Source of the DNA: Thermoproteota archaeon
GTDB lineage: Archaea > Thermoproteota > Thermoprotei_A > Sulfolobales > NBVN01
Reading direction: 5' to 3'
NCBI GenBank assembly: GCA_030550455.1
Contig: JAUQPH010000007.1
Location: forward strand, 5,600 to 69,599
Length of the DNA stretch: 64,000 nucleotides
Below are positions 5,091 to 64,000 of the stretch, in pieces. Position 1 is the stretch's first letter. Every line of letters starts with the position of its first letter. The position numbers and the translations under genes are program-made. The notes under the pieces are model-generated. The model had not been told where the DNA came from and searched no databases. It worked only from the letters and a program-made list of their open reading frames with translations.

Positions 5091-5100
5091 TCCAACTCAC

Positions 5101-16641: not shown

Positions 16642-16679
16642 TCTTAGTTCTATGGCAAACACTATATAGTGTACCACAG

Positions 16680-50757: not shown

Positions 50758-51208
50758 GAACTATAGTTAAGCATGATTAAGTCATTAGAGCAGAGCCTTA
50801 GATACATTAATATTGATAATCCATGCAAGTGCTCTACTGTAGTCGGGTTGAACCGTGTGTGGTTTCAGGGGTGTTGTGATAATATCCATGTACTTCGGTG
50901 GGTTTACGCGTAGGTTCGAAATAGGTACTCAGTGGAAGCGAGATTAACTATTGTTTAAACCTGTGGACAGCACTCAACTCGACTTTGATGTTGGGTAATT
51001 GATTGTTTCTCGAGAATCCTTGGAGGTAGAATTGGGGAAACCAGGTTGAGTAACTTGGAGTGGTTTAATGCTTAGTTTCATCACATTAAAACATGACGTG
51101 TTGACTGAGAACACTTGTTCAATTAGGGTTCAATCCGAGATCGTTGTTCCCGAGTTATCAGTGTAGGGTTAAAACTGTGGTATACATGGATACTATTGAA
51201 GTGGTAGT

Positions 51209-51607
51209 ATGCCGGTGAGAGACGAAGTACTCAACTGGTTAGCAGAAGCTCAAGCTGACCTCAGGCATGCTGAAATGAGTATTAGTACAGGAGGATACAA
51301 CTGGGCTTGTTTCATAGCTCAGCAAGCTGCTGAGAAAGCTCTGAAAGCCCTAGTACTCCACGTTCTAGGTGAGTACCCGCGGGGTCACGACCTCGTCAAG
51401 CTCTACCGTAGAGTCAAGGGCTCTACGGCTGTTTCACTTAGTGAGGTTGCACTCGCTAAGCTATCAGCGTACTACACTCTAGCTAGATACCCCAACGCTG
51501 GCTTAGAGAGACCTTCAGAGGAGATCTTGAGAGAACACGCCGAGGAAGCCGTTTCGATCGCCAGAGGTGTACTGGATGAGGTCTCAAAGGCTATTCAAGA
51601 CCCATAG
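51209..51607 (+). CDS. HEPN-domain protein (second HEPN-MNT pair)
   Basis: 132 aa with WACFIAQQAAEKALKAL, PRGHDL and LARYP. Confidence 0.8.
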   Translation: MPVRDEVLNWLAEAQADLRHAEMSISTGGYNWACFIAQQAAEKALKALVLHVLGEYPRGHDLVKLYRRVKGSTAVSLSEVALAKLSAYYTLARYPNAGLERPSEEILREHAEEAVSIARGVLDEVSKAIQDP

Positions 51608-51899
51608 TGACATTGTAGAGATCCTCGGGAGGCTGGCTAGAGAGATCAACGCCACGGTTTACCTGTTTGGAAGCTACGCTAGAGGTGATCACACGCTTGA
51701 AAGCGATGTTGACATAGTAGTTGTATGCGAGTGCTTCAAGAGCATGAACTACCCGAATAGAGTTGCGTTCGTGAGAACAAAACTACCACCCGACATCGGG
51801 TTCGACATAGTAGCCTTAACACCGGAGGAGTTCAAGAGTAGATCGAGCAAGGCGTTCTTCAGAGACGTATCAAAGCACTGGGTAGAGATAAAACCGTAA
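51567..51899 (+). CDS. Minimal nucleotidyltransferase (MNT)
   Basis: 110 aa with LFGSYARGDHTLESDVDIVVV. Overlaps the HEPN gene by 41 nt. Confidence 0.8.
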   Translation: MYWMRSQRLFKTHSDIVEILGRLAREINATVYLFGSYARGDHTLESDVDIVVVCECFKSMNYPNRVAFVRTKLPPDIGFDIVALTPEEFKSRSSKAFFRDVSKHWVEIKP

Positions 51900-52291
51900 A
51901 AGCACGCGGTCACCGGCCTACAGTCACCTCAAGTTTAAGGCTTTCTAGACGAAGAGTCCTCTGCAGCGATATGTACTCACTAGTTTGTAGACCTTGCTAA
52001 ACTTAATCACGTCAAGAGCTCTAAGCATTCTAGAGAGACCTACAAAAACCTAGCACACTAAAACAGTTGCGAACCCCTCTCCCTACCGTGCTTATCCACT
52101 ACGTACTGAAGTATCCTAGCTCTATCCTCTTTACCCAAAGCTTTTAGGTTCAGCCCATCGTACTAAGGCTTCACAGCCTCACTCCCAACATTTTCTCCTA
52201 GTATTATCGTACAGTAATATTAGTTAATCGTTTCACGGTGCTTGCGTGGGGTCTGAAACAATGACTTATAAACCATCACCACGCATGGGAG

Positions 52292-52347
52292 TGGCGCCGG
52301 GGGCGGGATTTGAACCCGCGCGGGGTGTTCCCCCACCGGCTTAGCAG
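52292..52347 (-). tRNA. 3' portion only of a class II tRNA (Ser-like, loop CUGCUAA = anticodon GCU). Probable att site.
   Basis: The reverse complement reads CTGCTAA-GCCGG-T-GGGGGAACACCCC(long variable arm)-GC-GCGGG-TTCAAAT-CCCGC-CCCCGGC-G-CCA. No 5' acceptor, D arm or 5' anticodon-stem strand lies upstream of it. Confidence 0.65.
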
Positions 52348-52384
52348 AGCGAAATCTAGTGAGGAAGTTACCCCTAATGACCGC

Positions 52385-52392
52385 TTTATAAA
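52385..52392. promoter_or_regulatory. Palindromic TATA box (TTTATAAA) between the tRNA fragment and the integrase
   Basis: Its first base is 42 nt upstream of the integrase ATG (52427). On the other strand its near edge is 37 nt upstream of the tRNA-like sequence. Confidence 0.4.
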
Positions 52393-52426
52393 CCCTGCGA
52401 CCCCTACCCATTACTATTGGGGTGCT

Positions 52427-53377
52427 ATGGCAACTCCCATGCTCAACGTACTCCGTATTAAAGATTCGGAAGGAAATATCGTCGTTGAGGTATCAAGTAG
52501 AAGAGATATTAAGTTGCTTGGGGAGCTCTTGAGGAGTCTGGGGGTAACTGTAGCCGGTGGTAAGCGTGAACGATTCATAGAGTTTAATGAGATGTTCATG
52601 GAGTACTTAATAAAGGATAGGGGGCAGCAGGAGAAGACAGCTAAGTGCTACATGAACTACCTTAGACGGCTTGACGGTAAGCCCCTAACCTACGGGACCT
52701 TCCTCGAGATATCTGGTAGTAGGTGGATGGTTAAGTGTGTGAGGCTGTATATAGACTTCCTCGAGAAATCCGGGGAGATATCCGAGGATGAGGCTGAGAG
52801 GCTTAGGAAGATATTTAAGATTAGAAGTGGTGCTAAGATCATTAAGAAATACCACATCGAATACAGCAAGATAATCGAAGTACTGGAGAGAGTTGAGGTA
52901 GGTACTCTCTACTGGCTAGTCTTAAGAGTACTCTACTTTAGTGGTGCTAGACTGAGTGAAGTAGTCAAGATGATCCAGGATTTTGATGAGAGAGAGCTAA
53001 CCTGCTTTCAAGACAGGGGCTTCTGCCGCTATTACCTAGTGTGGAGTAGGGGTAAGAAGAGGTGTGAGTGGATCTACTTCCCAGCAACACTTACTGAATA
53101 TCTCAAGATGTGGAGGGGGAAGATCGGGAAGTACGATACTGTGAGGGATACTCTCTACGACTACTACGGCGTTAAGGTGAAAGACTTTCGAAAGCTGTTC
53201 TATCGAGTATGTCGGGATGTAGGGGTTGAGGGAGCGATTTGCGACTTCTACCAATCAAGAATATCGGGTTTAAGCATAGGTGACCTACACTATGACGACA
53301 TAGTGACTCGAGCAGACAAGCAGTACACTGAGCTAGCCGCCCGACTGAGTAAACTACTAGAGAGGGGTAGTAGTTGA
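52427..53377 (+). CDS. int: Tyrosine recombinase / integrase (archaeal SSV- or pNOB8-like)
   Basis: Box I-like FSGARLSEVVKM, with C-terminal Tyr candidates in LHYDDIVTRADKQYTEL. It directly abuts a tRNA 3' fragment. The frame stays open upstream to 52265, across the tRNA fragment. Confidence 0.7.
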   Translation: MATPMLNVLRIKDSEGNIVVEVSSRRDIKLLGELLRSLGVTVAGGKRERFIEFNEMFMEYLIKDRGQQEKTAKCYMNYLRRLDGKPLTYGTFLEISGSRWMVKCVRLYIDFLEKSGEISEDEAERLRKIFKIRSGAKIIKKYHIEYSKIIEVLERVEVGTLYWLVLRVLYFSGARLSEVVKMIQDFDERELTCFQDRGFCRYYLVWSRGKKRCEWIYFPATLTEYLKMWRGKIGKYDTVRDTLYDYYGVKVKDFRKLFYRVCRDVGVEGAICDFYQSRISGLSIGDLHYDDIVTRADKQYTELAARLSKLLERGSS

Positions 53378-53378
53378 G

Positions 53379-53993
53379 ATGAGCACTAACTCCGGTAGGA
53401 CATACTCTAGAAAGTTTAGAGGTGTTTTAATGCCTGTAGTATGTAGATCTGGTGGTTTTACAGTCTTAGTGAAGCCGTATAACATATTTAATGTAGTCTT
53501 CGTACCGAAAGATGATGTATTACACTACTTCAGCATCTCCAACCCACGCAAGTGTTGTGAAGACATCTACTCAATTACTCCACCCTACGGCCGCGGGAGA
53601 CGCGACACGTTTTTCGGAAGCTATAGACTGGAGGTAGAGAGAATCCCGCTAGTAACTCTCGACAACATTGTCTTGAGGAAGAGCAGTACTCATCAGTGGT
53701 ACTCGAGGGGTTCTGTTAGAAGGGTGAACGTGTGGTTGGATTCGAAAGAGTTGCTGGATAGGGCTGTACCTATCGATAAGTCTTACTTAGCTCGGCTGAG
53801 GCTGAGATTACCCTGCTACGTGTACGGGTTAAGCATCTTCGGTAGGACGATCACGGTGGTATGGAATAATGAGGTGCGTAGTAGGTGGCACTATGCTGGA
53901 GCTGTAAGGTCTTGCAGGAACGTGAGGGTCTTCCTCCTCTACGACTACCTACCTATTATCGCAGAAGGTGGCTCTCCCGATGGTAAGATATAG
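53379..53993 (+). CDS. Element ORF, hypothetical (Arg/Tyr/Cys-rich)
   Basis: 204 aa. Starts 2 nt after the integrase stop. No recognisable domain. Contains RLRLPCYVYG. Confidence 0.5.
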   Translation: MSTNSGRTYSRKFRGVLMPVVCRSGGFTVLVKPYNIFNVVFVPKDDVLHYFSISNPRKCCEDIYSITPPYGRGRRDTFFGSYRLEVERIPLVTLDNIVLRKSSTHQWYSRGSVRRVNVWLDSKELLDRAVPIDKSYLARLRLRLPCYVYGLSIFGRTITVVWNNEVRSRWHYAGAVRSCRNVRVFLLYDYLPIIAEGGSPDGKI

Positions 53994-54672
53994 TCAGGAG
54001 ATGACGAATCTAGTCTACTTTAAAATTGAGAGGACGGATCCAGTAATTACTCGGCTAAGGGGTAGGAGGTACCACAGGACATACGGAATAGTGTTAAGTA
54101 GCTTTAGAGTAGTTGAAGTGTTAGTTCCACTAAACCTTCATGGTCAGATACCGCTAGATCGCGGTAAGTATGTCTACTTTACTAAGTGTAGTAATCAGTG
54201 GACAATAGTTAGGAAGCTATATAGAGTATGTGAGATACACGACGTAGAGTGTCTAGAGAAAGTAACTAGTAAGAAGAGTACCATACCGGATAGACTCTAC
54301 ATCAGACTAGCAACGTGGGAGGATATAAAACACTACATCCAGTGGAGTAAGATACCCTACCTACTAAGGGAGAACCAACTACGAGACCTATACCTACTAG
54401 TACTATACTACAATAAAGGAAGAGGAATCGGGAGATACAAACTCGACATAGACCTCATATACGTACCACGAAACTGCGCACTCAAATTCGTCGAAACCGA
54501 GCAAAACATGTTCATCGACGGCATATACTACTCCTACAACACCTACCTAGTCTTTACCAACATTCCATACGTCGGACTAACCTACAGCAAAGTAGTAAAA
54601 GCAATTAAGAAAGTAAAGAACTGCTGGCGAACCATGAGAAGCAACCCCAATAGAAAGACCTCTTTGAACTGA
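53968..54672 (+). CDS. Element ORF, hypothetical
   Basis: 234 aa overlapping the previous ORF. Basic and Tyr-rich, with no recognisable domain. Confidence 0.5.
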   Translation: MALPMVRYSQEMTNLVYFKIERTDPVITRLRGRRYHRTYGIVLSSFRVVEVLVPLNLHGQIPLDRGKYVYFTKCSNQWTIVRKLYRVCEIHDVECLEKVTSKKSTIPDRLYIRLATWEDIKHYIQWSKIPYLLRENQLRDLYLLVLYYNKGRGIGRYKLDIDLIYVPRNCALKFVETEQNMFIDGIYYSYNTYLVFTNIPYVGLTYSKVVKAIKKVKNCWRTMRSNPNRKTSLN

Positions 54673-54905
54673 TGAGAGGCGATCTAATGAAGGTCTTTGA
54701 ACTGATTAAAACAGCTAAAACCACAAACACAAATCAACAACCAAACCCCTACAAAAACGTGGTGGGGTTTGGATTCGTAGGTGTTAGTAGTGTTTTATTG
54801 AGTGTGAGTATAGATATAATATTAATCTATAATATAATAATAATATTTGTAAACATAATTGTAATAAATGAGTTCATGAGGCTCTGCGGGCTTCGGGCTA
54901 CCTAG
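54672..54905 (+). CDS. Small hydrophobic ORF (doubtful coding)
   Basis: 77 aa. The hydrophobic Ile/Asn-rich half is encoded by an extremely AT-rich tract (54809-54872) that could instead be a promoter or an unwinding element. Confidence 0.3.
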   Translation: MRGDLMKVFELIKTAKTTNTNQQPNPYKNVVGFGFVGVSSVLLSVSIDIILIYNIIIIFVNIIVINEFMRLCGLRAT

Positions 54906-54918
54906 GGGGGTTGTTTGT

Positions 54919-55899
54919 ATGGTTAAAGTTCATCGGTTGGTGAGTATTAGGCCTAACATAGTTGGGTGTTGGGAGGCTGATAGTAGTTATATAGCTTCCA
55001 AGCTACGTAGTTCGGAGAAGCTCTACTTCTGCTTTAGAGAAGACTATAGAGTTGTAGTATTGAAGAGAAAGCCTAAGTATATAGTTCCTACTAAGGTGTA
55101 CCCACCTAAAGACCTGTGTATCTCATCGCCTGTAACAAGTAGTTCTATAGGTTTCCTTCAGAAGCTTAAGCTACCCTGTTACATACACGCTCCATGCATC
55201 TGCTTCTGCTATCAGGAGGAAGGTCAAACTCCATCCACTAGACTATGCGATGAAGAAGGCAACTGCCATTACGAGCCGCAGGATCTGTACTGCGAATACG
55301 TCAACGCATATGACCTCGTGAACATACTTATCTACCCAACCAATATAGTGAGGAACATCAAGATCTACAGATACTTCGTGACTATAGGTGAGTCTAAAGC
55401 ATACGTCGCACCTTACCCTCTAACTATGAACATGAGTATTGCGTTTGAGTATGTGCTTAAGTCAAGTAGGGGAGAGCTCGAAGACTACTATAAGAAGTTG
55501 TTGAAAAAATACGGTGGTAACATACCCGACGCAGTAAACTTCTTCGGTAGCTACCTACCGATCGATGCCTCAGTAGTATACCCCGAAGGCGTTCCCGAAG
55601 GTGTTGAACTATACATGAACCGATACGTCTTCGTCAATCCCTGCTCGAAGACACTAGCATTCAATTTCTACCCCATAGGGTCGAACAAGTTTCACGCAGT
55701 AGTAATTGCGTGGTTCGACTCTGATGATAGAGCTTATAGAGTAGCTAGAGTAGCTTGGGAGATAAGGAAGGATGTAACAGTACCCTACCTCCAATTCCTT
55801 AGGAAGGTGAGGAGAGGTAGAGACTTCATTAGCTCACAGCTACTCACATCTGTGGAAGACCTACTCGACCTAGGCGAGTCTAATGACGAGGAGTTCTAG
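54919..55899 (+). CDS. Element ORF, hypothetical Cys-rich protein
   Basis: 326 aa with the Cys cluster KLKLPCYIHAPCICFCYQEEGQTPSTRLCDEEGNCHYEPQDLYC and an acidic C-terminus. Confidence 0.55.
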   Translation: MVKVHRLVSIRPNIVGCWEADSSYIASKLRSSEKLYFCFREDYRVVVLKRKPKYIVPTKVYPPKDLCISSPVTSSSIGFLQKLKLPCYIHAPCICFCYQEEGQTPSTRLCDEEGNCHYEPQDLYCEYVNAYDLVNILIYPTNIVRNIKIYRYFVTIGESKAYVAPYPLTMNMSIAFEYVLKSSRGELEDYYKKLLKKYGGNIPDAVNFFGSYLPIDASVVYPEGVPEGVELYMNRYVFVNPCSKTLAFNFYPIGSNKFHAVVIAWFDSDDRAYRVARVAWEIRKDVTVPYLQFLRKVRRGRDFISSQLLTSVEDLLDLGESNDEEF

Positions 55900-55945
55900 A
55901 TAGGGAGAACCGCATGCTTTATATGTACATTACGCAACAAATATA

Positions 55946-56473
55946 TTGGGTGAGAGAGTGAGTACAACCCCCGTAAGCTTTTCAAGTGCGGCACCTATAT
56001 CTAGTATACTCAGACCTGCCTTCAGCGGAGTTCCAAACGCTAAAGCTCTCGTTAAGTACATCATCTCCGTAATCTCGGCAATCAAGCACGGAGGTCATAA
56101 AGTGAGGTTCTACGTAACTGGAGATATAGCGGTTGCGATTAGACCAGCACTCGAGAGGTTAGGTGTTAAGCTCCTACCAGCTCAAGAGTTAAAGCCACCC
56201 TACGTCCTCTTCAAGCTCGAAGACGGGGAGGTCGTTGTTGAGGCTTCAGACGGGGAAGAGGAGTATACCGTAGGTAAGGTGAGTTCCTATGAGTTCATAG
56301 GCTACCTATACGAAACCGTACTCGAGAGACTATACCCCCGTAAGAAGATCACACTAGAGATAGGTGGAGACGAGGGTAGAGAGGGGGAAGGCGAAGAAGA
56401 TGAAGAAGTCATCTACATAGACGAGTACTTTAAGGAAGAAGCAGCAGGATCTCGAGGTAGTGATAAGCACTAG
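55946..56473 (+). CDS. Element ORF, hypothetical with an acidic tail
   Basis: 175 aa with the C-terminal GGDEGREGEGEEDEEVIYIDEYFKEE. Confidence 0.45.
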   Translation: MGERVSTTPVSFSSAAPISSILRPAFSGVPNAKALVKYIISVISAIKHGGHKVRFYVTGDIAVAIRPALERLGVKLLPAQELKPPYVLFKLEDGEVVVEASDGEEEYTVGKVSSYEFIGYLYETVLERLYPRKKITLEIGGDEGREGEGEEDEEVIYIDEYFKEEAAGSRGSDKH

Positions 56474-57084
56474 CTAGACCGCTTATCTGTCGAGGACTCG
56501 TAGCGTGAGGTCGAGGGCTTATAGCGTGGGCAGGCTACACAGAGAAGTGGTTGCTCACTAACCTTCAGGTAGTACACACCACCTACCTCCTCAACACTCA
56601 GCTGAGATATCTCTTCACTCAGCCTCATTACCCCACACAAACCCTTCTCATTCACGTGAACACAGGAGTACTTTCCCTTAACCCTCATCTTAGCAAACTT
56701 TCTGAGAGTGTCAATCTCACGCTCTATAGCAGAAACCCTCCTATGGAGCTCTAACACAGCATCCTGCAAGTTCCCGTGGCCTAACCTCTTAATACTGCCC
56801 AACCGATCCTCTAGCTCCTTAACTTGAGCTAAGAGCCTATCGACCCGACCAAACAAGTCAGCAAACTGCTTTACCCTAGACCTAACCTCTGAGTACCCGG
56901 AGAGAAGCTCCCAAACCTTATACGTACTACAGCCAAGAACTTCAGCAATCTGCCTATACGTATACCCTTTCTCCCTTAACTCAACAGCTTTCTCCCTCAA
57001 CACAGCATCGTCGTACCTCCTCCTAGGCACACAACCACCCAATAACACAGACGCATACGTTATATAAAAATTATTATAAAACAC
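56470..57084 (-). CDS. HTH DNA-binding protein with coiled-coil and Cys-containing C-terminal domains
   Basis: KGYTYRQIAEVLGCSTYKVWELL (HTH), a heptad-like LLAQVKELEDRLGSI...AIEREIDTLRKF, then C..C....C..C. The first ~9 codons are TATA-like (TTTTATAATAATTTTTATATA), so the true start is probably downstream, for example the GTG near 57027. Confidence 0.55.
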   Translation of the reverse strand: MFYNNFYITYASVLLGGCVPRRRYDDAVLREKAVELREKGYTYRQIAEVLGCSTYKVWELLSGYSEVRSRVKQFADLFGRVDRLLAQVKELEDRLGSIKRLGHGNLQDAVLELHRRVSAIEREIDTLRKFAKMRVKGKYSCVHVNEKGLCGVMRLSEEISQLSVEEVGGVYYLKVSEQPLLCVACPRYKPSTSRYESSTDKRSS

Positions 57085-57256
57085 TCATCACACATAGCAC
57101 TATCCGCAGGAGTGAAACAGCGGAGAGGCGGTTATGTGTGGTTTTTTTTGGGTGGTCTCCTCGGTTTTGCGGGTTTGTGCGTGGGTTTGATTGTGTGTTT
57201 CTGCACGTGAGTTACTACCGGTTCTTACGTTAGTCTTTCTTGCTGTTCTTCATGGA

Positions 57257-57319
57257 GTTTTCACAGGTTTTCACACTCGGTTATGCGCGACGTGTACAAT
57301 TCCTTCATAAGTCCTTCAT
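57257..57319 (+). repeat. Short tandem direct repeats (iteron-like)
   Basis: GTTTTCACAG/GTTTTCACAC at 57257-57276. TCCTTCAT occurs twice, at 57301-57308 and 57312-57319. Confidence 0.5.
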
Positions 57320-57767
57320 GCTGTCTTCCTTGGGATTTAAGGAGGTCTTATAGAGGATTTAGTGGTTGGAGTCCGGTGTACTGTACGAGCCTCTGAGAAG
57401 TTTCCTCGAGGTGTACAGTACAGCCGGGTCTACATGATCCAGTCGAGAACGCGGTGATATGTGGAAGCTGTTTGGTTTGTTTTATAACAACTGAGGTAAT
57501 GCGTAGGAATCGGGGTCGAGGTTGAAGGTAGCGAGGTACTTCAAGACGTGGGTAGCCGTGCTTGTCTCGCTTTCCCTGACTCTAGCTACTCTACGGATCG
57601 CGGCAGCTTCTAGCGCTCTCCACTATGCGCTAACCGATGTTCTCGATAGAGCTCTGCGACTCCTCAGCGCTACATCGTTAGCCCCCCTGCTGTTGAGTGG
57701 TACTGAACCAAGTGGTTGGTGAAAGAGCTTGGCTACCAACTCCCGAATCAGCAAACCTAACGAACTC

Positions 57768-57868
57768 ACTGGAAATTTCCAGTAGCTGGAAGCTATCCAC
57801 GTAAGAGAATGAGGGGGTTCTGATGGACTGACCACCATCAACTTTCCAGTAACTGGAAAGTTTCCAGT
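57768..57868. promoter_or_regulatory. Cluster of TTCCAGT half-site palindromes (ORB-like protein-binding array)
   Basis: ACTGGAAATTTCCAGT is a perfect 16-nt palindrome at 57768-57783, followed by AGCTGGAAGC. CTTTCCAGTAACTGGAAAGTTTCCAGT lies at 57842-57868. Further sites are GTTCCAGTGG at 58371-58380 and ACTTTCCAG at 58391-58399. Confidence 0.55.
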
Positions 57869-57954
57869 CTGGCGATAAGCAGAAGGCTGGCGTCGAGTAG
57901 AACCACAGCAGGACCTCAGTCGAGAAAAGAGAGTGAGTAGAGGACAAAGTATTT

Positions 57955-58260
57955 GGGGGTTTGGATTTTATGTGGATTAATGTAGTTTGATGCCAACCCC
58001 TAGCTTCACAAACCTAGGGCACCTTTCATCGGCATCCGCACCATCGGTCTCCACCCATTCAGGGTAACCCTAACCCGCAGCTCACCCTCATATGGTTCAG
58101 GTTCACAGCCGTGGAGAAACCCCCATCCTGGCGTTGGATGCCCCTACCCACTCAGGTCTCCACCACAAACCCGCATCGCGGACGGGCTCATCATCTCACG
58201 GTAACACAACTTACATCAAACCCTACAAACCTTCATGAAACCCGAAACAGCTGCGCGAGG
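57955..58260 (+). repeat. Dispersed repeat family, copy 5 (subfamily B)
   Basis: Starts GGGGTTTGG and ends GAAACAGCTGCGCGAGG. Aligns with the reverse complement of 21450-21725. Confidence 0.7.
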
Positions 58261-59327
58261 TGGTATTGTGGTTCTCGAGTTGAGGAGGAGGAAAGATATA
58301 CGTTATTTTTCGATAATACTCACTATTCTTTCCGCCACCCTACTGTCACTAAACGGTGGCTCACTAAGTAGTTCCAGTGGGTACGAAATCACTTTCCAGC
58401 CCTGCTAATACAACACTTGGGTTTAAACTGATTCTTGGGCACACTCGCTCCAATAGCTTCACGTCTCTCTGCAGGGTTCCCCAGCATTAAAACAGGCTTC
58501 TTTATTCCGAGGAAAGTAGCTTTTTACGGCATCCTACCCGAATCACTCATGACGAGCCTCAAGTTTTCAATAAGGTCAGGAACTCAAAGTAGCCTTGCTG
58601 CGGAACAATCTGTACGTACTCTAAGTTACTCAAAGTCGTGAGAAGCCATATTCTTCCGGTCTCCTACGTGCTCTCGGCGAATAGAGTAACTACCGGAATT
58701 AATATTCTCCTTCGATGCCTCTATGAGGTTCTTCAAAACTCTTTCGATTGCTAATCTTTTAATCTTAAAGTTTATATGAAAACGCAACTCTATCAGCTAA
58801 GCAGCAACAAAGAGCTTCAGTCTATCTTCCCCAATCTGGATAAGAGGCTTTATAATGCATAATAGTAACTCGCAACGTTCTAACCTCCACAAAGACTAGT
58901 TTATCTTCTACAAAACTCCTTTCTTTATTTTAATTAAGACTTAGGAAATAATCTTCTTAACATCACTCATGCAGGAATTAATATGACATGAGAGTTGAAA
59001 ACCTTTGAATGAACGAGTTTAGACAGAGATAGTAGATGACCTAAACGACCATCTTTATTGATTGGTGAGTTAAAAATTCTCTTAGAAGACACTCTAAGAG
59101 GGGTGGTAGCTCGCGAAACAAGCGCTAAAGGTTTAAGAGTATTTCAGGTTAGAGAAGATAATAAGGAGGTTTGTGTGCGTTATTGTGTATTAGATAGATT
59201 CGAAATTCGCAACTCATAATGCAAAGCATATTATCGATTTTGATTGACGCTGTCTAGACACACCCTTTACAGGATTAAGATAAGAACTTTTAACCCCCTA
59301 CTAGTGATATTTCTTGAATGAATAGAC

Positions 59328-60320
59328 TTGAGAAGAGAGGTGGTAATTAGATTGAAAGGGAAAATTCTAGTTACCGGTGGCGCAGGATTTATTGGTAGTC
59401 ACTTGGTTGATAAGTTGATAGGAATGGGCTTTTTTGTCCGAGTCGTAGATAATTTCTCTACAGGGCGTATTGAAAATTTAATGCATCATATAGAAATCAA
59501 AAATTCAGCCTTAGAGCTAATAAGAGGTGACCTTAAGAATCCAAATGATTCATATGAGGTGGTAAAAGGGGTAGATGTAGTGTTTCATTTCGCAGCCAAT
59601 CCTGAAGTAAAAGTTTCTACAATAAGTCCTAAGACACATTACAACGAAAATATCTTATCTACGTTTAATTTGCTCGAAGCAATGAGAGAACTTGAGGTTA
59701 AGGAGCTAGTTTTTGCCTCATCTAGTTCAGTCTATGGAGAACCAGACGTCATTCCTGTGGATGAGAACCATCGTGTGGCACCAATCTCAGTTTACGGAGC
59801 AACGAAAGCAGCCTGCGAAAACCTGATTCATGCGTATTCCCGGCTATATGGAATCAGATGCGTAATTTTAAGATACGCAAATGTTGTCGGTCCCAGATTG
59901 AGGCATGGAGTAATCTTTGATCTACTAATGAAGCTAGCTAAAAACCGAGGAAAGTTAGAGGTTCTCGGCGATGGTACACAAATTAGGAGTTATGTGTATA
60001 TAGATGATGCAGTAGAGGCAACCATAATTGCATGGAGAAGTGGAACTAAAAATTATGACGTATACAATGTAGCTTCTGTTGACTGGATTGACGTGAGGAC
60101 CGTTGTCGACATAATACTAAACGAGTTAAATATCACGAATTTATCAATAGAATACAAACCAACATTGCATGGAGTTGGTTGGCCCGGCGATGTAAAGAGA
60201 ATAGCGTTAGATATCAAAAAGCTGAAGGAACTCGGTTTTAAACCCAGTTTAAACAGCGTTGAAGCAGTTAGAAGAACCGTGCGACACTTAATCCAGGAGT
60301 TAAATCTAAGGTTTGCATAA
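59328..60320 (+). CDS. NAD-dependent sugar epimerase/dehydratase (UDP-glucose 4-epimerase family)
   Basis: VTGGAGFIGSHL Rossmann motif and the YGATK catalytic motif. The start may be the TTG at 59352. Confidence 0.85.
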   Translation: MRREVVIRLKGKILVTGGAGFIGSHLVDKLIGMGFFVRVVDNFSTGRIENLMHHIEIKNSALELIRGDLKNPNDSYEVVKGVDVVFHFAANPEVKVSTISPKTHYNENILSTFNLLEAMRELEVKELVFASSSSVYGEPDVIPVDENHRVAPISVYGATKAACENLIHAYSRLYGIRCVILRYANVVGPRLRHGVIFDLLMKLAKNRGKLEVLGDGTQIRSYVYIDDAVEATIIAWRSGTKNYDVYNVASVDWIDVRTVVDIILNELNITNLSIEYKPTLHGVGWPGDVKRIALDIKKLKELGFKPSLNSVEAVRRTVRHLIQELNLRFA

Positions 60321-60333
60321 GGCGTGACTGCTT

Positions 60334-61437
60334 ATGTCAGTACATGGGTATAAAGTGCTTTTTGATAGTACTCGAAAGAAGCACGTTCATGATAATGCTG
60401 TCATAATATCCTTGCCTGCAGTAAGAGAAGAGAAAACCATTGGAAATGTTGTAAGGAAAATAAGAGAGCAGTTGGGGGATAAGGCGTATATAGTAGTATG
60501 TGTTAAAGATGAGGAAGATCCAACAGTAAAAGCTGCATTAGAGAGCGGTGTTGACGCCATAGTACTTCAGCCGAAACGGGGTTATGGTCTGGCACATTTA
60601 ACGGCAATGCACTATGGAAGATCAAGAATACCAAATGCTAAAACTATAGTGATGGTTGATGCTGATGATACCTATGATCTAAGTAGGTTACATGAAATGG
60701 TCGAGCTCTCATTAAGGCATAGAGCCCTCGTCATCGGTAATAGATTAGAGAAAAAACCTAGTAGGAACGCTATGCCAACATTGAATTATCTGGGCAACAA
60801 AATATTATCCTTGATATTTAGAATACTCTTTACGAAGCATATCCCTGATACGCAGTCAGGACTCAAAGTGTTTCCCGCAGATTTATTAGAGCACCTTAGT
60901 ACAAACGGTATGGAGTTTTCCACAGAGGTCATAGTTGCTTCTCTAAAATCAGGTATTCCGATATATTCTGTTCCAATAAATTATTACCCTCGACTCGGTT
61001 CACCAAGTAAGTTAAGAAGATTCAGGGATTTTATGAGAATATTATGGTTTATATTTAGAGAAAGTATCACAAGATTTATGCTTAGTGGAGTCTTATCTCT
61101 ACTTATTGCTCAAGTAATACTTTTGATACTCCTAACTATTGGTTTAGAAAAACTACCCTCTCTAATTTTATCTAGTGAGGTATCCATATGGCTAGGCTTC
61201 ATGATTAATGATAGATATTATAATTTCCTGCAGGATAAAGACTCGTATAGAGACTTTATATGGCGCGGCCTCAAGTACAACAGCATCTATGTTTTCTCAA
61301 TTATTTTAGCCTCTGGCATCGCATTACTTATTCATAATTGTGTTGATCTTCACTTGGTTTTAGCTAACTTTATTGCGTCTATCATGATATTTCCGTTGAA
61401 CTATTTTATAAATATACGTTTGACGTGGAATTGGTGA
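60334..61437 (+). CDS. Family 2 glycosyltransferase fused to a GtrA-like membrane domain
   Basis: GT-A fold with VMVDADDTYD (DxD). The C-terminal ~120 aa have four TM helices of GtrA type. Confidence 0.8.
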   Translation: MSVHGYKVLFDSTRKKHVHDNAVIISLPAVREEKTIGNVVRKIREQLGDKAYIVVCVKDEEDPTVKAALESGVDAIVLQPKRGYGLAHLTAMHYGRSRIPNAKTIVMVDADDTYDLSRLHEMVELSLRHRALVIGNRLEKKPSRNAMPTLNYLGNKILSLIFRILFTKHIPDTQSGLKVFPADLLEHLSTNGMEFSTEVIVASLKSGIPIYSVPINYYPRLGSPSKLRRFRDFMRILWFIFRESITRFMLSGVLSLLIAQVILLILLTIGLEKLPSLILSSEVSIWLGFMINDRYYNFLQDKDSYRDFIWRGLKYNSIYVFSIILASGIALLIHNCVDLHLVLANFIASIMIFPLNYFINIRLTWNW

Positions 61438-62553
61438 TTGATGTTGAGGGTAGCTTTCGTTACTGAGCTATTCCCACCGCATGTAGGGGGGCAAGAGTTT
61501 CGCTTTTCTCAGTTTGCTAAGTTACTCATCAGCAAGGGGTGGAGCGTTGACGTTTACACTATTAAACATCAAAGAAGCCTACCCGAATATGAGAGGTTGG
61601 ACAAAATTTCTATCTATAGATATATAACGTTGACAGATTACGTTAAGCCAGGATCGCGGGCCCCTATTCCACTATTGAAATATATTATTAAAACAAGGAA
61701 GCTGATAGAAACGATCCATACAGAGTATGATGTTCTTCTCGTGAATGAGATGCCCATATTACATCTATATGCTATTCCTAGATATGATAACTTAGTCGTA
61801 GACGTCTGCGAGGTTCATAGCAAAGGCTTACTGAGAATAATGACCAATAATCCGATGAAGCATTTAAAACATGCCATAGCCGTGAGCGATTTTATAGGGG
61901 AATGGTTGAAAAAAATCAATAAAGAAGCTAAAGTTGAAACCATTAGAACCCCTTTAAAAATATCTGAGTACTTTTCAAATCCGGACAAGAAAGAACCTTA
62001 TACTATTCTGTACGTAGGCAGATTAGTCCCTCATAAGAACGTTTTGAACTTAGCGAAAGCAGTAATTAAGATTAGAACGAGCAATGATAAACTCAGATGG
62101 AGATTAATTGTTGTGGGGAGTGGAGAAAGGTATTTAGAAAATTTAATTAGTAAATTATCTGAGAGATATGAGTTTATTGAATACTTGGGGTACGTAAGAG
62201 AAGGCGAGAAGAGGGAACTCTTTAAAAGAGCTTGGCTTTTTGCCATTCCAAGTATAAGAGAAGGATTCCCTAATAGTGTGGCTGAGGCTGTAGCATCTAG
62301 CACGCCTGTGCTTGTGGTTAAATGTCCTAATAGTGGACTATGGTATGAAGTCTTAAAGTATAGAATCGGAAAGGTCTGCAGCGATGCGAGCTCCGAGTAT
62401 TTGGCCAGATGTCTTGCGGATATCGACGAAGATACGTATTTTAGATATGTTGAAGGCACATATAAACTGCGTAGAGAATTTGATGAATCATATGTATATG
62501 CGAAACTATCGTTTTTCCTAACTAAGGTGGTTAATCATGAGAGTTTCGAATAA
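61438..62553 (+). CDS. Family 4 (GT-B) glycosyltransferase
   Basis: Motif PSIREGFPNSVAEAVASSTPVLV. Confidence 0.8.
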   Translation: MMLRVAFVTELFPPHVGGQEFRFSQFAKLLISKGWSVDVYTIKHQRSLPEYERLDKISIYRYITLTDYVKPGSRAPIPLLKYIIKTRKLIETIHTEYDVLLVNEMPILHLYAIPRYDNLVVDVCEVHSKGLLRIMTNNPMKHLKHAIAVSDFIGEWLKKINKEAKVETIRTPLKISEYFSNPDKKEPYTILYVGRLVPHKNVLNLAKAVIKIRTSNDKLRWRLIVVGSGERYLENLISKLSERYEFIEYLGYVREGEKRELFKRAWLFAIPSIREGFPNSVAEAVASSTPVLVVKCPNSGLWYEVLKYRIGKVCSDASSEYLARCLADIDEDTYFRYVEGTYKLRREFDESYVYAKLSFFLTKVVNHESFE

Positions 62554-64000
62554 CATTTTAGAAAAACACCTTATATTTACCATATTCATCAGTTTTGTCT
62601 CAATCGTTATCATATATCCCGTTATGAGAAAAGTAGTCAATGGTGAAGTTTTTGGCGGTGATGTTGGACAGTACTTAATATCAGCATATGCCATTGTTCA
62701 CGGCAGAAACTTTGTTTATAACTACCCCTACCCACTTATATCGTTGATATATGTACCGATTGTGCTACTACTTAAAGATTCATTTATTCAATACGTTATA
62801 GGTTGTCTTCTCGGGCCTATTTTGATGATTTTGCTTGTGGTAGCAACATACTTATCTATAACATCTCTAATAAACGATAAAAATTACATAAAAAATAGCA
62901 TAGCATCGACATTGGGAAGCGTTCCAGTGGCTTTTTTCCCATTATACTTAGATGCTATAGGTTGGGGCGGACAAGCTCAGTTCCTCGGATTAATCTTAGG
63001 AATGATTTTGATCAGGTTTTATATAGAGAGGAAATCTATACACTTTATGATAACCAGCATACTTCTAGTTTTGGCTCACCCGTGGACAGCATCATACTTT
63101 ATATTAGCTCTGACATTGCATAAACTGATACTACTCTGTATAGAGGTAAAGAACGCTATAATTAAGAAAAAGTATATAATCCTTAACATGCTCAAGTTTA
63201 CTTTATTCCCTCTGTTAACATTTTTAATCCTCTCTTATTTTCCTCTAGGGAAAGAGGATATGGTGGGAATACCTATCAATAATGTTCCAGTTATTAAAGC
63301 CATAATGAAGGGGGAACTCGATCTCATCTCGTTTATTAGACGCTTGACTTTTCCTACGGAGACCGTTTTACTATTTTTATCTATCTCATTTTTTATATTC
63401 TTATTTTCAAGGTTATCATCATTAAGTAAAAGAAATGGCGATCAAAGCATGTCAAGCTATAGTAATGTTTTGCTTATAAGACTGTTATTAATTTTATCAT
63501 TTCTCTACATTGTTATATGTCCGGCACAATATGCTGATAGGGGTTTCTACATTATTCCAATACCTCTTTCGCTTCATCTGGGTAGAGCGTTATCAGATTA
63601 TATGAGCAAGTTACAGCCTTCTCACATCGATTTTAAGGGAGACAAGGCATCAAGAGCATTTCTCCTACTGTTCCTATCGATTTTCTTTCTAGGATCTTAC
63701 AGTGGGGGCGCTATAATGTATTATCCATCGAGTCTTAGTTATTATGGTATTCCTAGCGACTTATTTTACATGAACAACATACTTGGAGAAGTTAATGATA
63801 ACGTGCTGCTTATAACCCCTCATGCTCTCTGGTTTCCTGCCTCAGGTATACTAAAGACAAACGTTTTCGTAACTTCCCAGCCAGTATGGTTCATCCAGAA
63901 AAAACAAATAGAGTATGTCGAGTACTCTAATATGTTAGCATGGGGTAATTTATTTCTTAGATGTAATAGGGTTGTAGTAGTTGACTCTCAGCCTTTGTGG
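62537..64000 (+). CDS. Large polytopic membrane protein, partial (runs off the window). Possible glycan polymerase or oligosaccharyltransferase-like protein.
   Basis: I read the frame from the ATG at 62537 to 64000 (488 codons) and saw no stop. At least 10 hydrophobic segments. It is not in the supplied ORF track, presumably because no stop falls inside the window. Confidence 0.55.
   Translation, partial: MRVSNNILEKHLIFTIFISFVSIVIIYPVMRKVVNGEVFGGDVGQYLISAYAIVHGRNFVYNYPYPLISLIYVPIVLLLKDSFIQYVIGCLLGPILMILLVVATYLSITSLINDKNYIKNSIASTLGSVPVAFFPLYLDAIGWGGQAQFLGLILGMILIRFYIERKSIHFMITSILLVLAHPWTASYFILALTLHKLILLCIEVKNAIIKKKYIILNMLKFTLFPLLTFLILSYFPLGKEDMVGIPINNVPVIKAIMKGELDLISFIRRLTFPTETVLLFLSISFFIFLFSRLSSLSKRNGDQSMSSYSNVLLIRLLLILSFLYIVICPAQYADRGFYIIPIPLSLHLGRALSDYMSKLQPSHIDFKGDKASRAFLLLFLSIFFLGSYSGGAIMYYPSSLSYYGIPSDLFYMNNILGEVNDNVLLITPHALWFPASGILKTNVFVTSQPVWFIQKKQIEYVEYSNMLAWGNLFLRCNRVVVVDSQPLW

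What the first reader, a model, noticed from the sequence alone, without database searches (positions are those of the whole stretch)
57768..58399. Array of eight TTCCAGT half-sites arranged as palindromes in a 2.2-kb gene desert (ORB-like)
Within about 630 bp:
- ACTGGAAATTTCCAGT, a perfect 16-nt palindrome, followed by AGCTGGAAGC (57768-57793);
- CTTTCCAGT-A-ACTGGAAAG-TTTCCAGT (57842-57868);
- GTTCCAGTGGGTA (58371);
- ACTTTCCAG (58391).

The archaeal origin recognition box bound by Orc1/Cdc6 has the core TTCCAGTGGAAA, and 58371-58382 matches 10 of those 12 positions. A 7-mer recurring this often by chance is very unlikely.

No orc1/cdc6 gene is in the window. The array could be a chromosomal or element origin, a plasmid-type centromere, or an operator array for the adjacent HTH protein.
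Basis: partly seen in the sequence, partly recalled or inferred. Interest (0 to 1): 0.7.

Follow-up and report, generated by a model that had tools for sequence, protein, structure and literature searches.

The report
Conserved palindrome module in integrated element
The repeated TTCCAGT motifs are real but form one compact 101-base palindromic module inside a 13.7-kb mobile element inserted in a serine tRNA gene of a hot-spring archaeon; it looks like a protein-binding or hairpin control site of that element, not a chromosomal Orc1/Cdc6 replication origin.

Summary
Six of the eight half-sites are real. They form one 101-bp module, M (57768-57868): two inverted triplets of the 8-mer TTTCCAGT around a 48-bp core. 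Five exact 7-mers fall in 101 bp, against at most 2 in 150 simulations.

The two distal "sites" (58371, 58391) lie in a frameshifted wecB pseudogene, are not conserved, and are chance.

M is single-copy and occurs in at least 10 related Desulfurococcales-type loci. In one group it changes 3-10 times more slowly than its flanks. It is inverted as a whole in one clade and collapsed to one degenerate palindrome in a more distant clade.

M lies inside a 13.7-kb element integrated in tRNA-Ser. Identical 60-nt att copies sit at 52288-52347 and about 65930-65989, just outside the window. The element has a split SSV-type integrase, five orphan ORFs, an HTH gene and low-GC glycosylation cargo.

ORB membership fails on dyad spacing, G-string, AT-rich unwinding element and a neighbouring initiator gene.

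M stays intact where the HTH gene is absent or dead, so it is unlikely to depend on that protein.

Best reading (about 0.4): a cis-acting nucleoprotein or stem-loop site of the element. Its closest functional analogue is the 100-nt stem-loop origin of plasmid pRN1.

The parts
57768..57792 (.). Left (a-end) cluster of module M: ACTGGAAA | TTTCCAGT | A | GCTGGAAG. It has three alternating 8-bp half-sites; the third is degenerate in this genome but perfect (ACTGGAAA) in X-type relatives.
57793..57842 (.). Core or spacer of M, about 48 bp and 46-48% G+C. It is almost invariant among X-type relatives and is inverted together with the clusters in one clade.
57843..57868 (.). Right (b-end) cluster of M: TTTCCAGT | A | ACTGGAAA | G | TTTCCAGT. 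It is the inverted repeat of the left cluster and pairs with it in a roughly 24-bp stem.
   Evidence: (I2, I23).
57161..57767 (.). Conserved noncoding 'left block' between the HTH promoter and M. It is not protein-coding: there is no codon periodicity and there are indels. A 117-bp piece (57146-57262) is inverted in a distant clade.
57869..58258 (.). Segment W, a C/A-rich noncoding stretch found only in window-type loci. It starts exactly at the last half-site of M. It replaces the roughly 500-bp segment X (noncoding DNA plus most of a TIGR04076 gene) of other relatives.
58259..58677 (-). Relics of two convergent genes: the last codons of a TIGR04076-family gene (+ strand, about 58259-58300) and a frameshifted wecB pseudogene (- strand, 58306-58677). 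The two distal 'half-sites' (58371, 58391) lie here.
56470..57030 (-). HTH protein gene (186 aa): an N-terminal HTH_23-type helix-turn-helix, a predicted coiled-coil middle and a Cys-rich C-terminus. A TATA-like box lies at 57060-57082.
52288..52347 (.). attL, a 60-nt copy of the 3' part of tRNA-Ser(GCU). It is identical to attR at window-equivalent 65930-65989, outside the window and read in L036.
52310..53377 (+). Int(C), the C-terminal part of a split ('suicidal') SSV-type tyrosine integrase (PF16795). The 33-aa Int(N) lies next to attR, 13.6 kb to the right.
53379..56473 (+). Five tightly packed orphan ORFs (204, 230, 72, 326 and 175 aa) of the element. None matches any Pfam, PHROG or NCBIfam family. 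For the 326-aa ORF, the only one searched, only near-identical homologues were found.
59328..64000 (+). Low-G+C (37%) glycosylation cargo: an NAD-dependent epimerase, a GT2/GtrA protein, a GT4 protein and a 752-aa protein. It continues beyond the window up to Int(N)/attR.

Best explanation
The feature is a single-copy 101-bp module, M. Three alternating 8-bp half-sites (TTTCCAGT / ACTGGAAA) lie on each side of a conserved 48-bp core, and the two triplets are inverted repeats of each other. M lies in the only long noncoding arm of a 13.7-kb element integrated into tRNA-Ser(GCU).

I read M as a cis-acting nucleoprotein site of that element family. Dimers of a sequence-specific DNA-binding protein would occupy the overlapping palindromes on both sides of the core. 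This protein is not shown to be element-encoded and may be a host factor. The roughly 24-bp arms can also extrude as a hairpin or cruciform. The unit works regardless of its orientation in the flanking DNA.

Its most likely role is in element maintenance or control: a replication-start, partition-type or master regulatory site. The closest functional analogue is the position-independent 100-nt stem-loop origin of plasmid pRN1.

**Shown:** the anatomy, single copy, position inside the att-bounded element, conservation above that of the flanks, the inversion, the collapse in one clade, and independence from the HTH gene.

**Inferred:** protein binding, and the replication or maintenance role.
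For: - **Clustering and symmetry.** Five exact 7-mers fall in 101 bp, against at most 2 in simulations. The arms are inverted repeats. The predicted hairpin is -42 kcal/mol as RNA (z = -3.0) and -21.7 kcal/mol as DNA (z = -3.75).
- **Single copy.** nhmmer finds one copy per locus and none elsewhere in 240 kb of held sequence. The 25-nt pattern hits one locus type per genome in 185,579 species genomes, plus three contigs of one JGI metagenome.
- **Constraint.** Among X-type loci, M differs at 0-2 of about 100 positions while its flanks differ at 7-15% (Fisher one-sided P from 2e-5 to 1e-2). The half-site letters never vary there except one A-to-G change in L017. Three of the four single-base linkers vary.
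- **Location inside a mobile element.** The identical 60-nt att copies sit at 52288-52347 and at window-equivalent 65930-65989. The integrase is split into Int(C) and Int(N), and tRNA-Ser is intact at the right end. The part from M or W up to the tRNA is 99.1-99.7% identical in two other MAGs that have different DNA beyond the tRNA.
- **No competing noncoding region.** The element core is tightly packed. M sits in the noncoding arm next to the HTH gene, and synteny of HTH, left block and the M position persists in a clade about 20% diverged.
- **Published precedent.** A 100-nt stem-loop is required for pRN1 replication, tolerates displacement and needs its structure intact (PMC4234260).
Against: - No element ORF has a recognisable replication, partition or other known domain. 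The one AlphaFold model tried was uninformative (pLDDT 35).
- M is best conserved in loci that show no integrase, orphan ORFs or HTH gene on the sequence held to the left of M (L011, L013, L014). This argues that any binding factor is host-encoded, or that selection acts for another reason.
- In the genome with intact element genes (the window), M is the most decayed version: one half-site is lost and 5 core positions have changed.
- In L025-L028, M is reduced to one degenerate palindrome, so it is dispensable there.
- The region between the att sites also holds chromosomal-looking genes and pseudogenes (TIGR04076, wecB). Whether M belonged to the original element backbone or to DNA captured later is not settled.
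- No relative of the element outside this narrow group was found for comparison.
Confidence: 0.4

Rival explanations
1. M is a regulatory operator or invertible control region acting on neighbouring genes. Candidates are the TIGR04076/wecB pair, the surface-glycan gene cluster, or a short noncoding transcript in segment X. A host transcription factor would bind the two triplets around a promoter-like core. The orientation of the unit may act as a switch, like an inverton.
For: - M always lies at the border of a hypervariable glycosylation gene cluster.
- In X-type loci it lies 230-260 bp upstream of a TIGR04076 gene.
- The whole unit, core included, is conserved more than its flanks.
- It is found in both orientations between the same flanks: L013 against L011, L009, L014, L017, L018, L029 and L030.
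- In most loci the core next to one triplet reads GGAAAG-TTTATGG, a weak BRE/TATA-like string. It is degenerate (TTGATGG) in the window-type loci, where the adjacent genes are destroyed.
- The segment shared by all X-type loci ends right after two T-runs (L011 about 1575-1609).
- Several assemblies break inside or next to M: L038 starts at 57790 and L037 at 58289.
Against: - A distance of 230-260 bp is long for archaeal promoter control.
- L014 keeps a perfect M but has no gene reading away from it.
- TIGR04076 loci of more distant relatives have no such array (L032, L033), and L025-L028 have lost it.
- The orientation pattern fits a single historical inversion.
- No sample shows both orientations, and L002 runs through M unbroken.
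- No invertase gene lies nearby in X-type loci.
- Only 48 bp separate the repeats, which is shorter than invertons I recall from the literature (from memory, not checked).
- A second small inversion nearby (57146-57262) has no long inverted repeats, so small inversions happen here without a dedicated system.
- RNAalifold gives no covariation support for an RNA in segment X.
Confidence: 0.2
2. M is the operator or binding array of the adjacent 186-aa HTH protein (56470-57030). That protein would bind as a coiled-coil dimer to the palindromes, as a repressor, partition adaptor or origin-binding protein of the element.
For: - The HTH gene is the nearest gene, and its synteny with the left block persists in a clade about 20% diverged.
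- The protein has an N-terminal HTH (PF13384, E = 8e-6) followed by a long heptad-like stretch suited to dimerisation.
- In L025-L028 the HTH gene is a dead pseudogene and M is collapsed as well.
Against: - M is perfect in L011, L013 and L014 (no HTH gene on the sequence held) and in L009 (HTH truncated at 56700).
- Only two HTH homologue clusters exist among 5.8 billion proteins, both near-identical to the window's protein and one of them truncated. The genomes carrying a perfect M therefore probably lack the protein altogether.
- The HTH promoter region (57031-57160) has no TTTCCAGT-like site.
- M is 740 bp from the gene.
Confidence: 0.12
3. M is a structurally unstable palindrome without a dedicated function. 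It could be a relic of a MITE- or PATE-like insertion, or of a duplication and inversion of one ancestral 17-bp palindrome. It would act mainly as a recombination or rearrangement hotspot.
For: - Rearrangement breakpoints coincide with it. The W and X versions diverge exactly at the last half-site.
- The whole unit is inverted in one clade.
- L025-L028 hold a single palindrome, GCTGGAAAG|TTTCAAGT, at the same place. This is what deletion between the two 17-bp direct repeats of M would leave, or what an empty target site would look like.
- Contigs of several assemblies end in or next to M.
Against: - M is single-copy, so it is not a multiplying MITE family.
- The non-repeated 48-bp core and the half-site letters change far more slowly than the flanks, while the linker bases vary. 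Neutral DNA would not behave this way, and gene conversion between the arms cannot explain the core.
Confidence: 0.15
4. M is an Orc1/Cdc6-type origin recognition array: a chromosomal origin, or an origin captured from the integrated element and fired by the host initiator.
For:
- The element has no recognisable replication protein, so it might depend on the host initiator.
- Capture of extrachromosomal elements is, as I recall it, a proposed source of extra archaeal origins (Robinson and Bell 2007; from memory, paper not retrieved). The review PMC4010727 surfaced but was not read.
Against: - The geometry is wrong: the arms are 5 nt apart or in reverse order.
- There is no G-string, and the GAGGGGG in the window's core reads GAGGAG in relatives.
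- The core is not AT-rich.
- I saw no convincing match to the AT-rich ucm-containing oriC1 oligo by eye (PMC12141716). The 11-bp ucm sequence itself was not obtained and no search was run.
- No orc1/cdc6 domain was found in the window or next to M in any relative.
- M is collapsed in L025-L028.
- The cumulative GC skew shows no turning point at M, which is weak evidence in archaea.
Confidence: 0.05

Closest known systems
Stem-loop replication origin of the crenarchaeal plasmid pRN1 (pRN family)
   Same: Both are roughly 100-nt inverted-repeat or stem-loop elements in the noncoding part of a small crenarchaeal mobile element. In pRN1 the function depends on the integrity of the stem and tolerates relocation (PMC4234260). 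M tolerates inversion and is conserved as a unit.
   Different: - pRN plasmids encode a prim-pol/helicase replication protein (ORF904) and a CopG-type repressor. The element here has no recognisable replication protein.
- M's arms are built from six copies of one 8-mer, which points to sequence-specific protein binding rather than structure alone.
- There is no sequence similarity to pRN1.
- Replication was not tested.
Archaeal origin recognition boxes (ORB / mini-ORB) bound by Orc1/Cdc6
   Same: They share the letters TTCCAGT / TGGAA. Both show dyad symmetry, and both have repeated elements in inverted orientation around a central segment.
   Different: - The spacing and order of the dyad arms differ.
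- M has no G-rich extension.
- M has no AT-rich unwinding element.
- There is no initiator gene nearby.
- M lies inside an integrated element.
- M is lost in a related clade.
Iteron or operator arrays flanking a core, such as the plasmid R1 parC centromere (two sets of repeats around the promoter); recalled from general knowledge
   Same: Both have two sets of short repeats flanking a conserved core of about 40-50 bp. Both are single-copy cis sites of a mobile element and are probably bound cooperatively.
   Different: - The repeats here alternate in orientation and overlap as palindromes, rather than being direct iterons.
- No ParA/ParM-type or adaptor gene was identified.
- This is an archaeal host.
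Bacterial invertons (invertible promoters flanked by inverted repeats, often next to surface-polysaccharide loci)
   Same: M is an inverted-repeat-flanked unit found in both orientations. It sits next to variable glycan biosynthesis genes, and both the repeats and the enclosed segment are conserved.
   Different: - No invertase is nearby.
- Only 48 bp are enclosed.
- No within-population heterogeneity has been shown.
- Promoter content is doubtful.
SSV-type ('suicidal') integrase elements integrated in tRNA genes (context of the finding)
   Same: The att site lies inside the integrase gene, which integration splits into Int(N) and Int(C). The integrase has the PF16795 domain. The target is the 3' part of a tRNA gene, with a 60-nt duplicated att (PMC8371274).
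   Different: All other genes are orphans. The 13.7 kb include glycosylation cargo and relics of chromosomal-type genes.

Membership tests
ORB / mini-ORB origin (Orc1/Cdc6) | A contiguous dyad core of about 12-13 bp, with the TTCCA and TGGAA arms separated by 1-2 nt | tested here: not met
   In M the arms are separated by 5 nt (TTCCA-GTAAC-TGGAA) or occur in the opposite order (TGGAAA-(N)-TTTCCA). The reference mORB oligo is in PMC3089459. The only 10/12 match (58371-58382) lies in a wecB pseudogene and is not conserved.
ORB / mini-ORB origin (Orc1/Cdc6) | A G-rich extension (GGGGT-type) next to the core in full ORBs | tested here: not met
   No G-string flanks any half-site. The GAGGGGG inside the window's core reads GAGGAG in the X-type relatives shown (GGGGAG in L009).
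ORB / mini-ORB origin (Orc1/Cdc6) | Inverted ORBs flanking an AT-rich duplex unwinding element | tested here: not met
   The 48-bp core has 46-48% G+C, against about 45% for the window.
ORB / mini-ORB origin (Orc1/Cdc6) | An adjacent initiator gene (orc1/cdc6 or whiP) | tested here: not met
   There is no Orc1/Cdc6-type Pfam hit in the 40 window ORFs scanned. These include every ORF of at least 298 aa except one nested inside a longer gene on the opposite strand. None is seen next to M in the relatives. A divergent WhiP could escape Pfam.
ORB / mini-ORB origin (Orc1/Cdc6) | Replication initiates there (marker frequency, 2D gels) | not testable with these tools
   This needs read-depth profiling of growing cells or of metagenome reads.
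pRN-type stem-loop plasmid origin | A stem-loop of about 100 nt in the element's noncoding DNA | tested here: met
   The predicted arms form about 24 bp. Free energy is -42 kcal/mol as RNA (z = -3.0) and -21.7 kcal/mol as DNA (z = -3.75). M lies between attL and attR.
pRN-type stem-loop plasmid origin | The element encodes an ORF904-type prim-pol/helicase replication protein and a CopG-like repressor | tested here: not met
   The five ORFs have no Pfam, PHROG or NCBIfam match. The HTH protein matches only generic HTH models.
pRN-type stem-loop plasmid origin | The stem-loop is required for replication | not testable with these tools
   This needs a replication assay.
Inverton (programmed invertible switch) | A segment flanked by inverted repeats is found in both orientations | tested here: met
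   The + orientation is seen in the window, L012, L013 and L023. The - orientation is seen in L009, L011, L014, L017, L018, L029 and L030, between the same left flank and (for X-type loci) the same right flank.
Inverton (programmed invertible switch) | Both orientations coexist within one population | not tested
   Raw reads were not available. L002 from SRR27730015 runs through M in one orientation. Contig ends at 57790 (L038) are suggestive only.
Inverton (programmed invertible switch) | A dedicated invertase, usually nearby | tested here: not met
   The only recombinase nearby is the split integrase of the window-type element. None is seen in L011, L013 or L014.
MITE / PATE non-autonomous transposon | Many dispersed copies per genome with terminal inverted repeats | tested here: not met
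   Inverted termini are present, but there is one copy in the 64-kb window and one locus type per genome in the collection scans.
Operator array of the adjacent HTH protein | The site and the protein gene co-occur, and the motif is present at the regulator's own promoter | tested here: not met
   M is intact without the gene in L011, L013 and L014, and with a truncated gene in L009. HTH homologues exist only as near-identical copies. There is no motif in 57031-57160.
SSV-type suicidal-integrase integrated element (context) | att lies inside the integrase gene, the gene is split into Int(N) and Int(C), and a duplicated att flanks the element at a tRNA gene | tested here: met
   The 60-nt att copies are identical, at 52288-52347 and window-equivalent 65930-65989. 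Int(N) and tRNA-Ser(GCU) are in L036 at 14410-14579. Full-length homologues P0124 and P0162 bridge both halves.

The most novel reading that the evidence does not exclude
M is an archaeal inverton: a 101-bp unit whose orientation is switchable. It would sit at the junction between the backbone and the variable surface-glycan cargo of an integrative element in hyperthermophilic Crenarchaeota, and would be flipped by recombination between its two triple-half-site arms. An equally unexcluded alternative is a replication start site of a Rep-less element that recruits a host factor through ORB-derived half-sites with altered spacing.
Probability: 0.1. Interest if true: 0.8.

Novelty: new variant of a known kind. 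Interest (0 to 1): 0.4.

Why it matters
- If M is the maintenance or control site of this element, it gives a handle on an orphan family of integrative elements in uncultured hot-spring Desulfurococcales. These elements carry cell-surface glycosylation genes and have no recognisable replication protein.
- Because M is conserved where the element's own genes are gone, it may identify an unknown host DNA-binding protein with an 8-bp half-site.
- If the orientation change proves to be programmed, I know of no earlier invertible switch reported in hyperthermophilic archaea (I did not check this). It would sit next to glycan genes, as in gut bacteria.
- For genome annotation, the practical result is negative. 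This is not an ORB-type chromosomal origin, and two of the reported sites are pseudogene debris.

Tried and rejected
- **Known RNA families.** Rfam found nothing at gathering thresholds across the window. At E up to 5 on 51.5-59.5 kb and on L011 it gave only noise, namely plant miRNA-hairpin models hitting M.
- **Similar DNA in annotated records.** blastn of 52290-58500 against phage and plasmid collections found no match.
- **Relatives of the element's proteins.** Scans of viral contigs with ORF326 and the HTH protein found none. The pattern scan of viral contigs found none. Protein searches with the HTH protein and ORF326 returned only near-identical proteins.
- **Coding potential in the noncoding arm.** The annotated 66-aa ORF 57522-57722 shows no codon periodicity (11/13/15 substitutions by codon position) and has indels, so it was rejected. 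ORFs crossing M are not conserved.
- **Conserved RNA structure in segment X.** The RNAalifold covariation term is +0.5, with one compensatory pair, so this is unsupported. The hairpin at 57373-57427 is not maintained in L025.
- **W as an inverted copy of the left block.** The local alignment score is within the shuffle range, so this was rejected.
- **C/D-box sRNA in the core.** The box spacing is wrong and the boxes are not conserved. Rejected by inspection.
- **Other pattern hits.** L010/L020 (Eubacterium), L015/L016/L021, L019 and L022 lie in unrelated DNA that looks coding or low-complexity. They are chance.
- **Structure prediction.** The AlphaFold2 model of ORF326 without an alignment has pLDDT 35 and is unusable, so no fold search was run.
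- **Another element with a related integrase.** L039 shares only the integrase (49% identity) and has no array.
- **My own earlier conclusion.** I first concluded that M lies outside the integrated element, because L011 lacks 51970-57160. I revised this when Int(N), attR and tRNA-Ser were found 13.6 kb to the right of attL.
Full report
**1. Observation.**
TTCCAGT occurs 14 times in the window on both strands, against 9.2 expected, which is unremarkable overall. Five copies, however, sit in the 101 bp from 57768 to 57868. In 150 first-order Markov simulations of the window no 101-bp stretch held more than two, and the Poisson probability is about 6e-12 per stretch. No other full palindrome TTTCCAGTNACTGGAAA occurs in the window, even with three mismatches.

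The anatomy is as follows:
- left cluster: ACTGGAAA | TTTCCAGT | A | GCTGGAAG;
- a 48-bp core;
- right cluster: TTTCCAGT | A | ACTGGAAA | G | TTTCCAGT.

Each cluster is three 8-bp half-sites in alternating orientation. The two clusters are inverted repeats of each other. I call the unit M. It can fold into a hairpin or cruciform with a stem of about 24 bp. The predicted free energy is -42 kcal/mol as RNA (z = -3.0) and -21.7 kcal/mol as DNA (z = -3.75).

**2. The two distal sites are chance.**
tblastn with the wecB (UDP-GlcNAc 2-epimerase) product of a relative matches 58306-58677 on the minus strand. The match is split over three frames and contains an internal stop. GTTCCAGTGGGTA (58371) and ACTTTCCAG (58391) lie in this relic. 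Where wecB is intact, the same positions read GTTCTAGTGAG or GCTCCAGTGAG. The array is six half-sites in 101 bp, not eight in 630 bp.

**3. Source and relatives.**
The window is from contig JAWBKL010000002.1 of MAG GCA_038831605.1. A scan for TTCCAGTNACTGGAANNNTTCCAGT found four archaeal contigs among 185,579 species genomes and three contigs in one JGI metagenome. All are homologous to this locus. They come from MAGs labelled Desulfurococcaceae or Sulfolobales; MAGs found through protein searches are labelled Zestosphaera, Thermofilaceae or Archaeoglobaceae. All other hits are unrelated DNA. More loci came from protein look-ups. An HMM of M finds exactly one copy per locus and nothing else in 240 kb of held sequence. 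M is therefore single-copy, which rules out a multiplying MITE family.

**4. What varies between relatives.**
- *Inversion.* The whole module is inverted relative to the same left flank in L009, L011, L014, L017, L018, L029 and L030. It has the window's orientation in L012, L013 and L023. L013 and L011 share both flanks but differ in orientation, so the inversion is real and was seen in independent assemblies. One historical event is enough to explain the distribution.
- *Two right flanks.* To the right of M there are two versions that diverge exactly at the last half-site. Segment W (57869-58258) occurs in the window type and in L012. Segment X occurs elsewhere and consists of about 250 bp of noncoding DNA plus a 97-101-aa TIGR04076-family gene. 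The two versions rejoin at 58259, inside the tail of that gene.
- *Collapse.* In a clade about 20% diverged (L025-L028), the same left flank and X are present but M is reduced to one degenerate palindrome, GCTGGAAAG|TTTCAAGT. Deletion between the two 17-bp direct repeats of M would leave exactly this.
- *Second inversion.* In that clade a neighbouring 117-bp piece (57146-57262) is also inverted, without long inverted repeats.
- *Assembly breaks.* Contigs of several assemblies end inside this noncoding arm, at 57191, 57298, 57346, 57391, 57790 and 58289. This suggests structural heterogeneity in the communities.

**5. Constraint.**
Among X-type loci, M differs at 0-2 of about 100 positions, while 100 bp to the left and 200 bp to the right differ at 7-15%. 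For example, L013 against L011 gives 2/101 in M and 44/302 in the flanks (Fisher one-sided P = 1e-4). L014 against L018 gives 1/100 and 39/266 (P = 2e-5). The half-site letters never vary there except one A-to-G change in L017. Three of the four single-base linkers vary. The non-repeated 48-bp core is almost invariant.

Gene conversion between the arms cannot explain the conserved core, so M as a whole is under constraint in those lineages. In the window type, M is more decayed: one half-site is lost (AGCTGGAAG) and five core positions have changed. Its conservation there does not clearly exceed that of the flanks (win-L012, P = 0.27).

**6. Context: M lies inside an integrated element.**
The ORF at 52310-53377 carries the SSV-type integrase domain PF16795. 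A profile-free search of 1.8 billion representatives found a 407-aa homologue that aligns from residue 2 of the ORF. It also found an 83-aa protein (P0162) that supplies the missing 33 N-terminal residues and continues into the ORF. The window therefore holds Int(C) of a split, 'suicidal' integrase (PMC8371274).

The Int(N) peptide matches the extreme end of L001, just beyond the window. Fetching more of the same contig (L036, which equals window 51444-72553) shows Int(N) followed by an intact tRNA-Ser(GCU) on the minus strand, at window-equivalent 65853-66022. The att copies are 60 nt long and identical: 52288-52347 and 65930-65989. The Logan contig L002 starts at 52318, exactly k-1 = 30 nt into attL, as expected for a repeat-induced break.

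The 13.7 kb between the att sites hold, in order:
- Int(C);
- five tightly packed orphan ORFs (204, 230, 72, 326 and 175 aa);
- the HTH gene on the opposite strand;
- 1.2 kb of noncoding DNA (left block, M, W);
- the TIGR04076 and wecB relics;
- a low-G+C (37%) set of glycosylation genes;
- Int(N).

Two other MAGs carry the stretch from 57790 or 58289 to the 5' end of the tRNA at 99.1-99.7% identity, but have different DNA beyond the tRNA. That fits either mobility of the unit or a rearrangement at the tRNA.

I had first concluded that M lies outside the element, because L011 joins 51969 to 57161 through 188 unrelated bp. With attR located, L011 is better read as a deletion derivative. Truncation of the HTH gene at 56700 in L008 and L009, and its decay to a pseudogene in L025-L027, fit progressive erosion from the left. 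Whether the TIGR04076/wecB/glycan part is original cargo or was captured later is unresolved.

**7. Testing the ORB/origin reading.**
The Sulfolobus mORB oligo is given in PMC3089459.
- In M the arms are 5 nt apart or in the reverse order.
- There is no conserved G-string.
- The core is not AT-rich.
- I saw no convincing resemblance by eye to the AT-rich ucm-containing oriC1 oligo (PMC12141716). The 11-bp ucm sequence itself was not obtained and no search was run.
- No Orc1/Cdc6-type domain was found in the 40 window ORFs scanned, which include every ORF of at least 298 aa except one nested inside a longer gene on the opposite strand. None lies next to M in any relative.
- The array is collapsed in one clade.

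I put an Orc1-type origin at about 5%.

**8. Testing the HTH-operator reading.**
- M is perfect where the HTH gene is not on the sequence held (L011, L013, L014) or truncated (L009).
- The only HTH homologues among 5.8 billion proteins are near-identical copies, one of them truncated.
- The HTH promoter region and the other promoters of the element carry no TTTCCAGT-like site beyond chance: four one-mismatch hits lie among the element's genes (52288-57030), and 6.4 hits are expected over the whole scanned stretch 52288-59328.

I put this at about 12%.

**9. Best explanation and rivals.**
Several properties point to a self-contained nucleoprotein site:
- M is a single-copy, orientation-independent unit.
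- Its conservation extends to the core.
- It is built from six identical half-sites whose linkers are free to vary.
- It can form a stem-loop of about 100 nt.
- It lies in the one long noncoding arm of a small integrative element.

The closest functional analogue is the 100-nt stem-loop origin of pRN1, which needs its structure and tolerates relocation (PMC4234260). I therefore favour a cis-acting maintenance or control site of the element family, at about 0.4. The binding protein is possibly host-encoded, since the site outlives the element's genes.

The main rival, at about 0.2, is a regulatory or invertible control region for the adjacent TIGR04076/glycan genes or for a short transcript in X.
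- *For:* the position at the border of the glycan island, the inversion, a weak BRE/TATA-like GGAAAG-TTTATGG that is degenerate where the neighbouring genes are dead, and T-runs at the end of the shared X segment.
- *Against:* the distance from the genes, L014, the lack of an invertase, the 48-bp size, no covariation and no evidence of switching within a population.

A functionless fragile palindrome (about 0.15) explains the breakpoints, the inversion and the collapse, but not the constraint.

**10. Limits.**
All relatives are within about 20% divergence and mostly come from MAGs. No reads, expression data or binding data were available. The element's proteins are orphans, and the one structure prediction was unusable (pLDDT 35). 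The functional assignment is therefore an inference from anatomy, position and conservation.

Noticed in passing
window 52288-64000, continuing to window-equivalent 66022 (L036 845-14579): A 13.7-kb element is integrated in tRNA-Ser(GCU). It has identical 60-nt att copies and a split SSV-type integrase: Int(C) at 52310-53377 and Int(N) next to the tRNA, outside the window. It carries five orphan ORFs and low-G+C glycosylation cargo.
   Followed up: yes
window 58306-58677 (-) and 58259-58300 (+): A frameshifted wecB (UDP-GlcNAc 2-epimerase) pseudogene and the last codons of a TIGR04076-family gene. Both genes are intact and convergent in relatives (L011, L013, L025).
   Followed up: yes
window 57146-57262; L025 914-1030, L026 1659-1775: A second small inversion (117 bp) in the G/T-rich start of the noncoding arm distinguishes the L025-L028 clade from the window. 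Only about 5 bp of inverted repeat (GTGTG/CACAC) lie at its ends.
   Followed up: partly
window 45891-46170, 50498-50676, 16679-16953 (reverse); L013 278-563: A repeat family of about 280 bp (75-92% identity) is associated with the HEPN/nucleotidyltransferase and PIN toxin-antitoxin genes. It may be a MITE or a shared promoter/leader region.
   Followed up: no
window 46363-51900: A dense toxin-antitoxin island lies directly left of attL. It holds two HEPN plus nucleotidyltransferase pairs (46363-47138 and 51209-51900) and two PIN-domain genes (47914-48393 and 49909-50388), one of them with a MazE-type antitoxin.
   Followed up: partly
L034 (ENA ERZ27245617, 1099 bp), 766-1017: This contig carries an unsplit version of the same integrase, with Int(N), att and Int(C) contiguous and 99% identical to the window across att. 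It is preceded by DNA unrelated to the window except for the roughly 80 bp (L034 735-812) that match the stretch running into Int(N) beside attR. It is either a free (attP) form of a related element or a differently integrated copy. Part of its upstream DNA (352-477) matches L013 953-1080 in reverse.
   Followed up: partly
L037 (GCA_038728725.1) 1-7735 and L038 (GCA_038892445.1) 1-8240: The right half of the element, including the glycosylation genes, is 99.1-99.7% identical in two other MAGs up to the 5' end of tRNA-Ser. Beyond that point their sequence differs from the window's contig (ferredoxin, Toprim, PolB versus AsnC, MoaC, SAM synthetase). This indicates either horizontal spread or a rearrangement at the tRNA. 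L038 begins inside M, at 57790.
   Followed up: partly
window 57373-57427: An imperfect hairpin, CCGGTGTACTGTAC...GTACAGTACAGCCGG, lies in the left block. It is conserved in close relatives, but its inner stem is broken in L025.
   Followed up: partly
L022 (Ga0316620_10099800) 100-200: An unrelated 55% G+C contig holds a run of CTTCCAGTG / CACTGGAAG repeats. It looks like a low-complexity coding repeat at a contig end and is not homologous to M.
   Followed up: partly
window 58777-58806: The Logan contig L002 ends at 58806 with no att-like repeat there. The G+C content drops from about 48% to 37-39% between 58.3 and 59.3 kb. This is a possible boundary of an exchangeable glycosylation cassette.
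   Followed up: no
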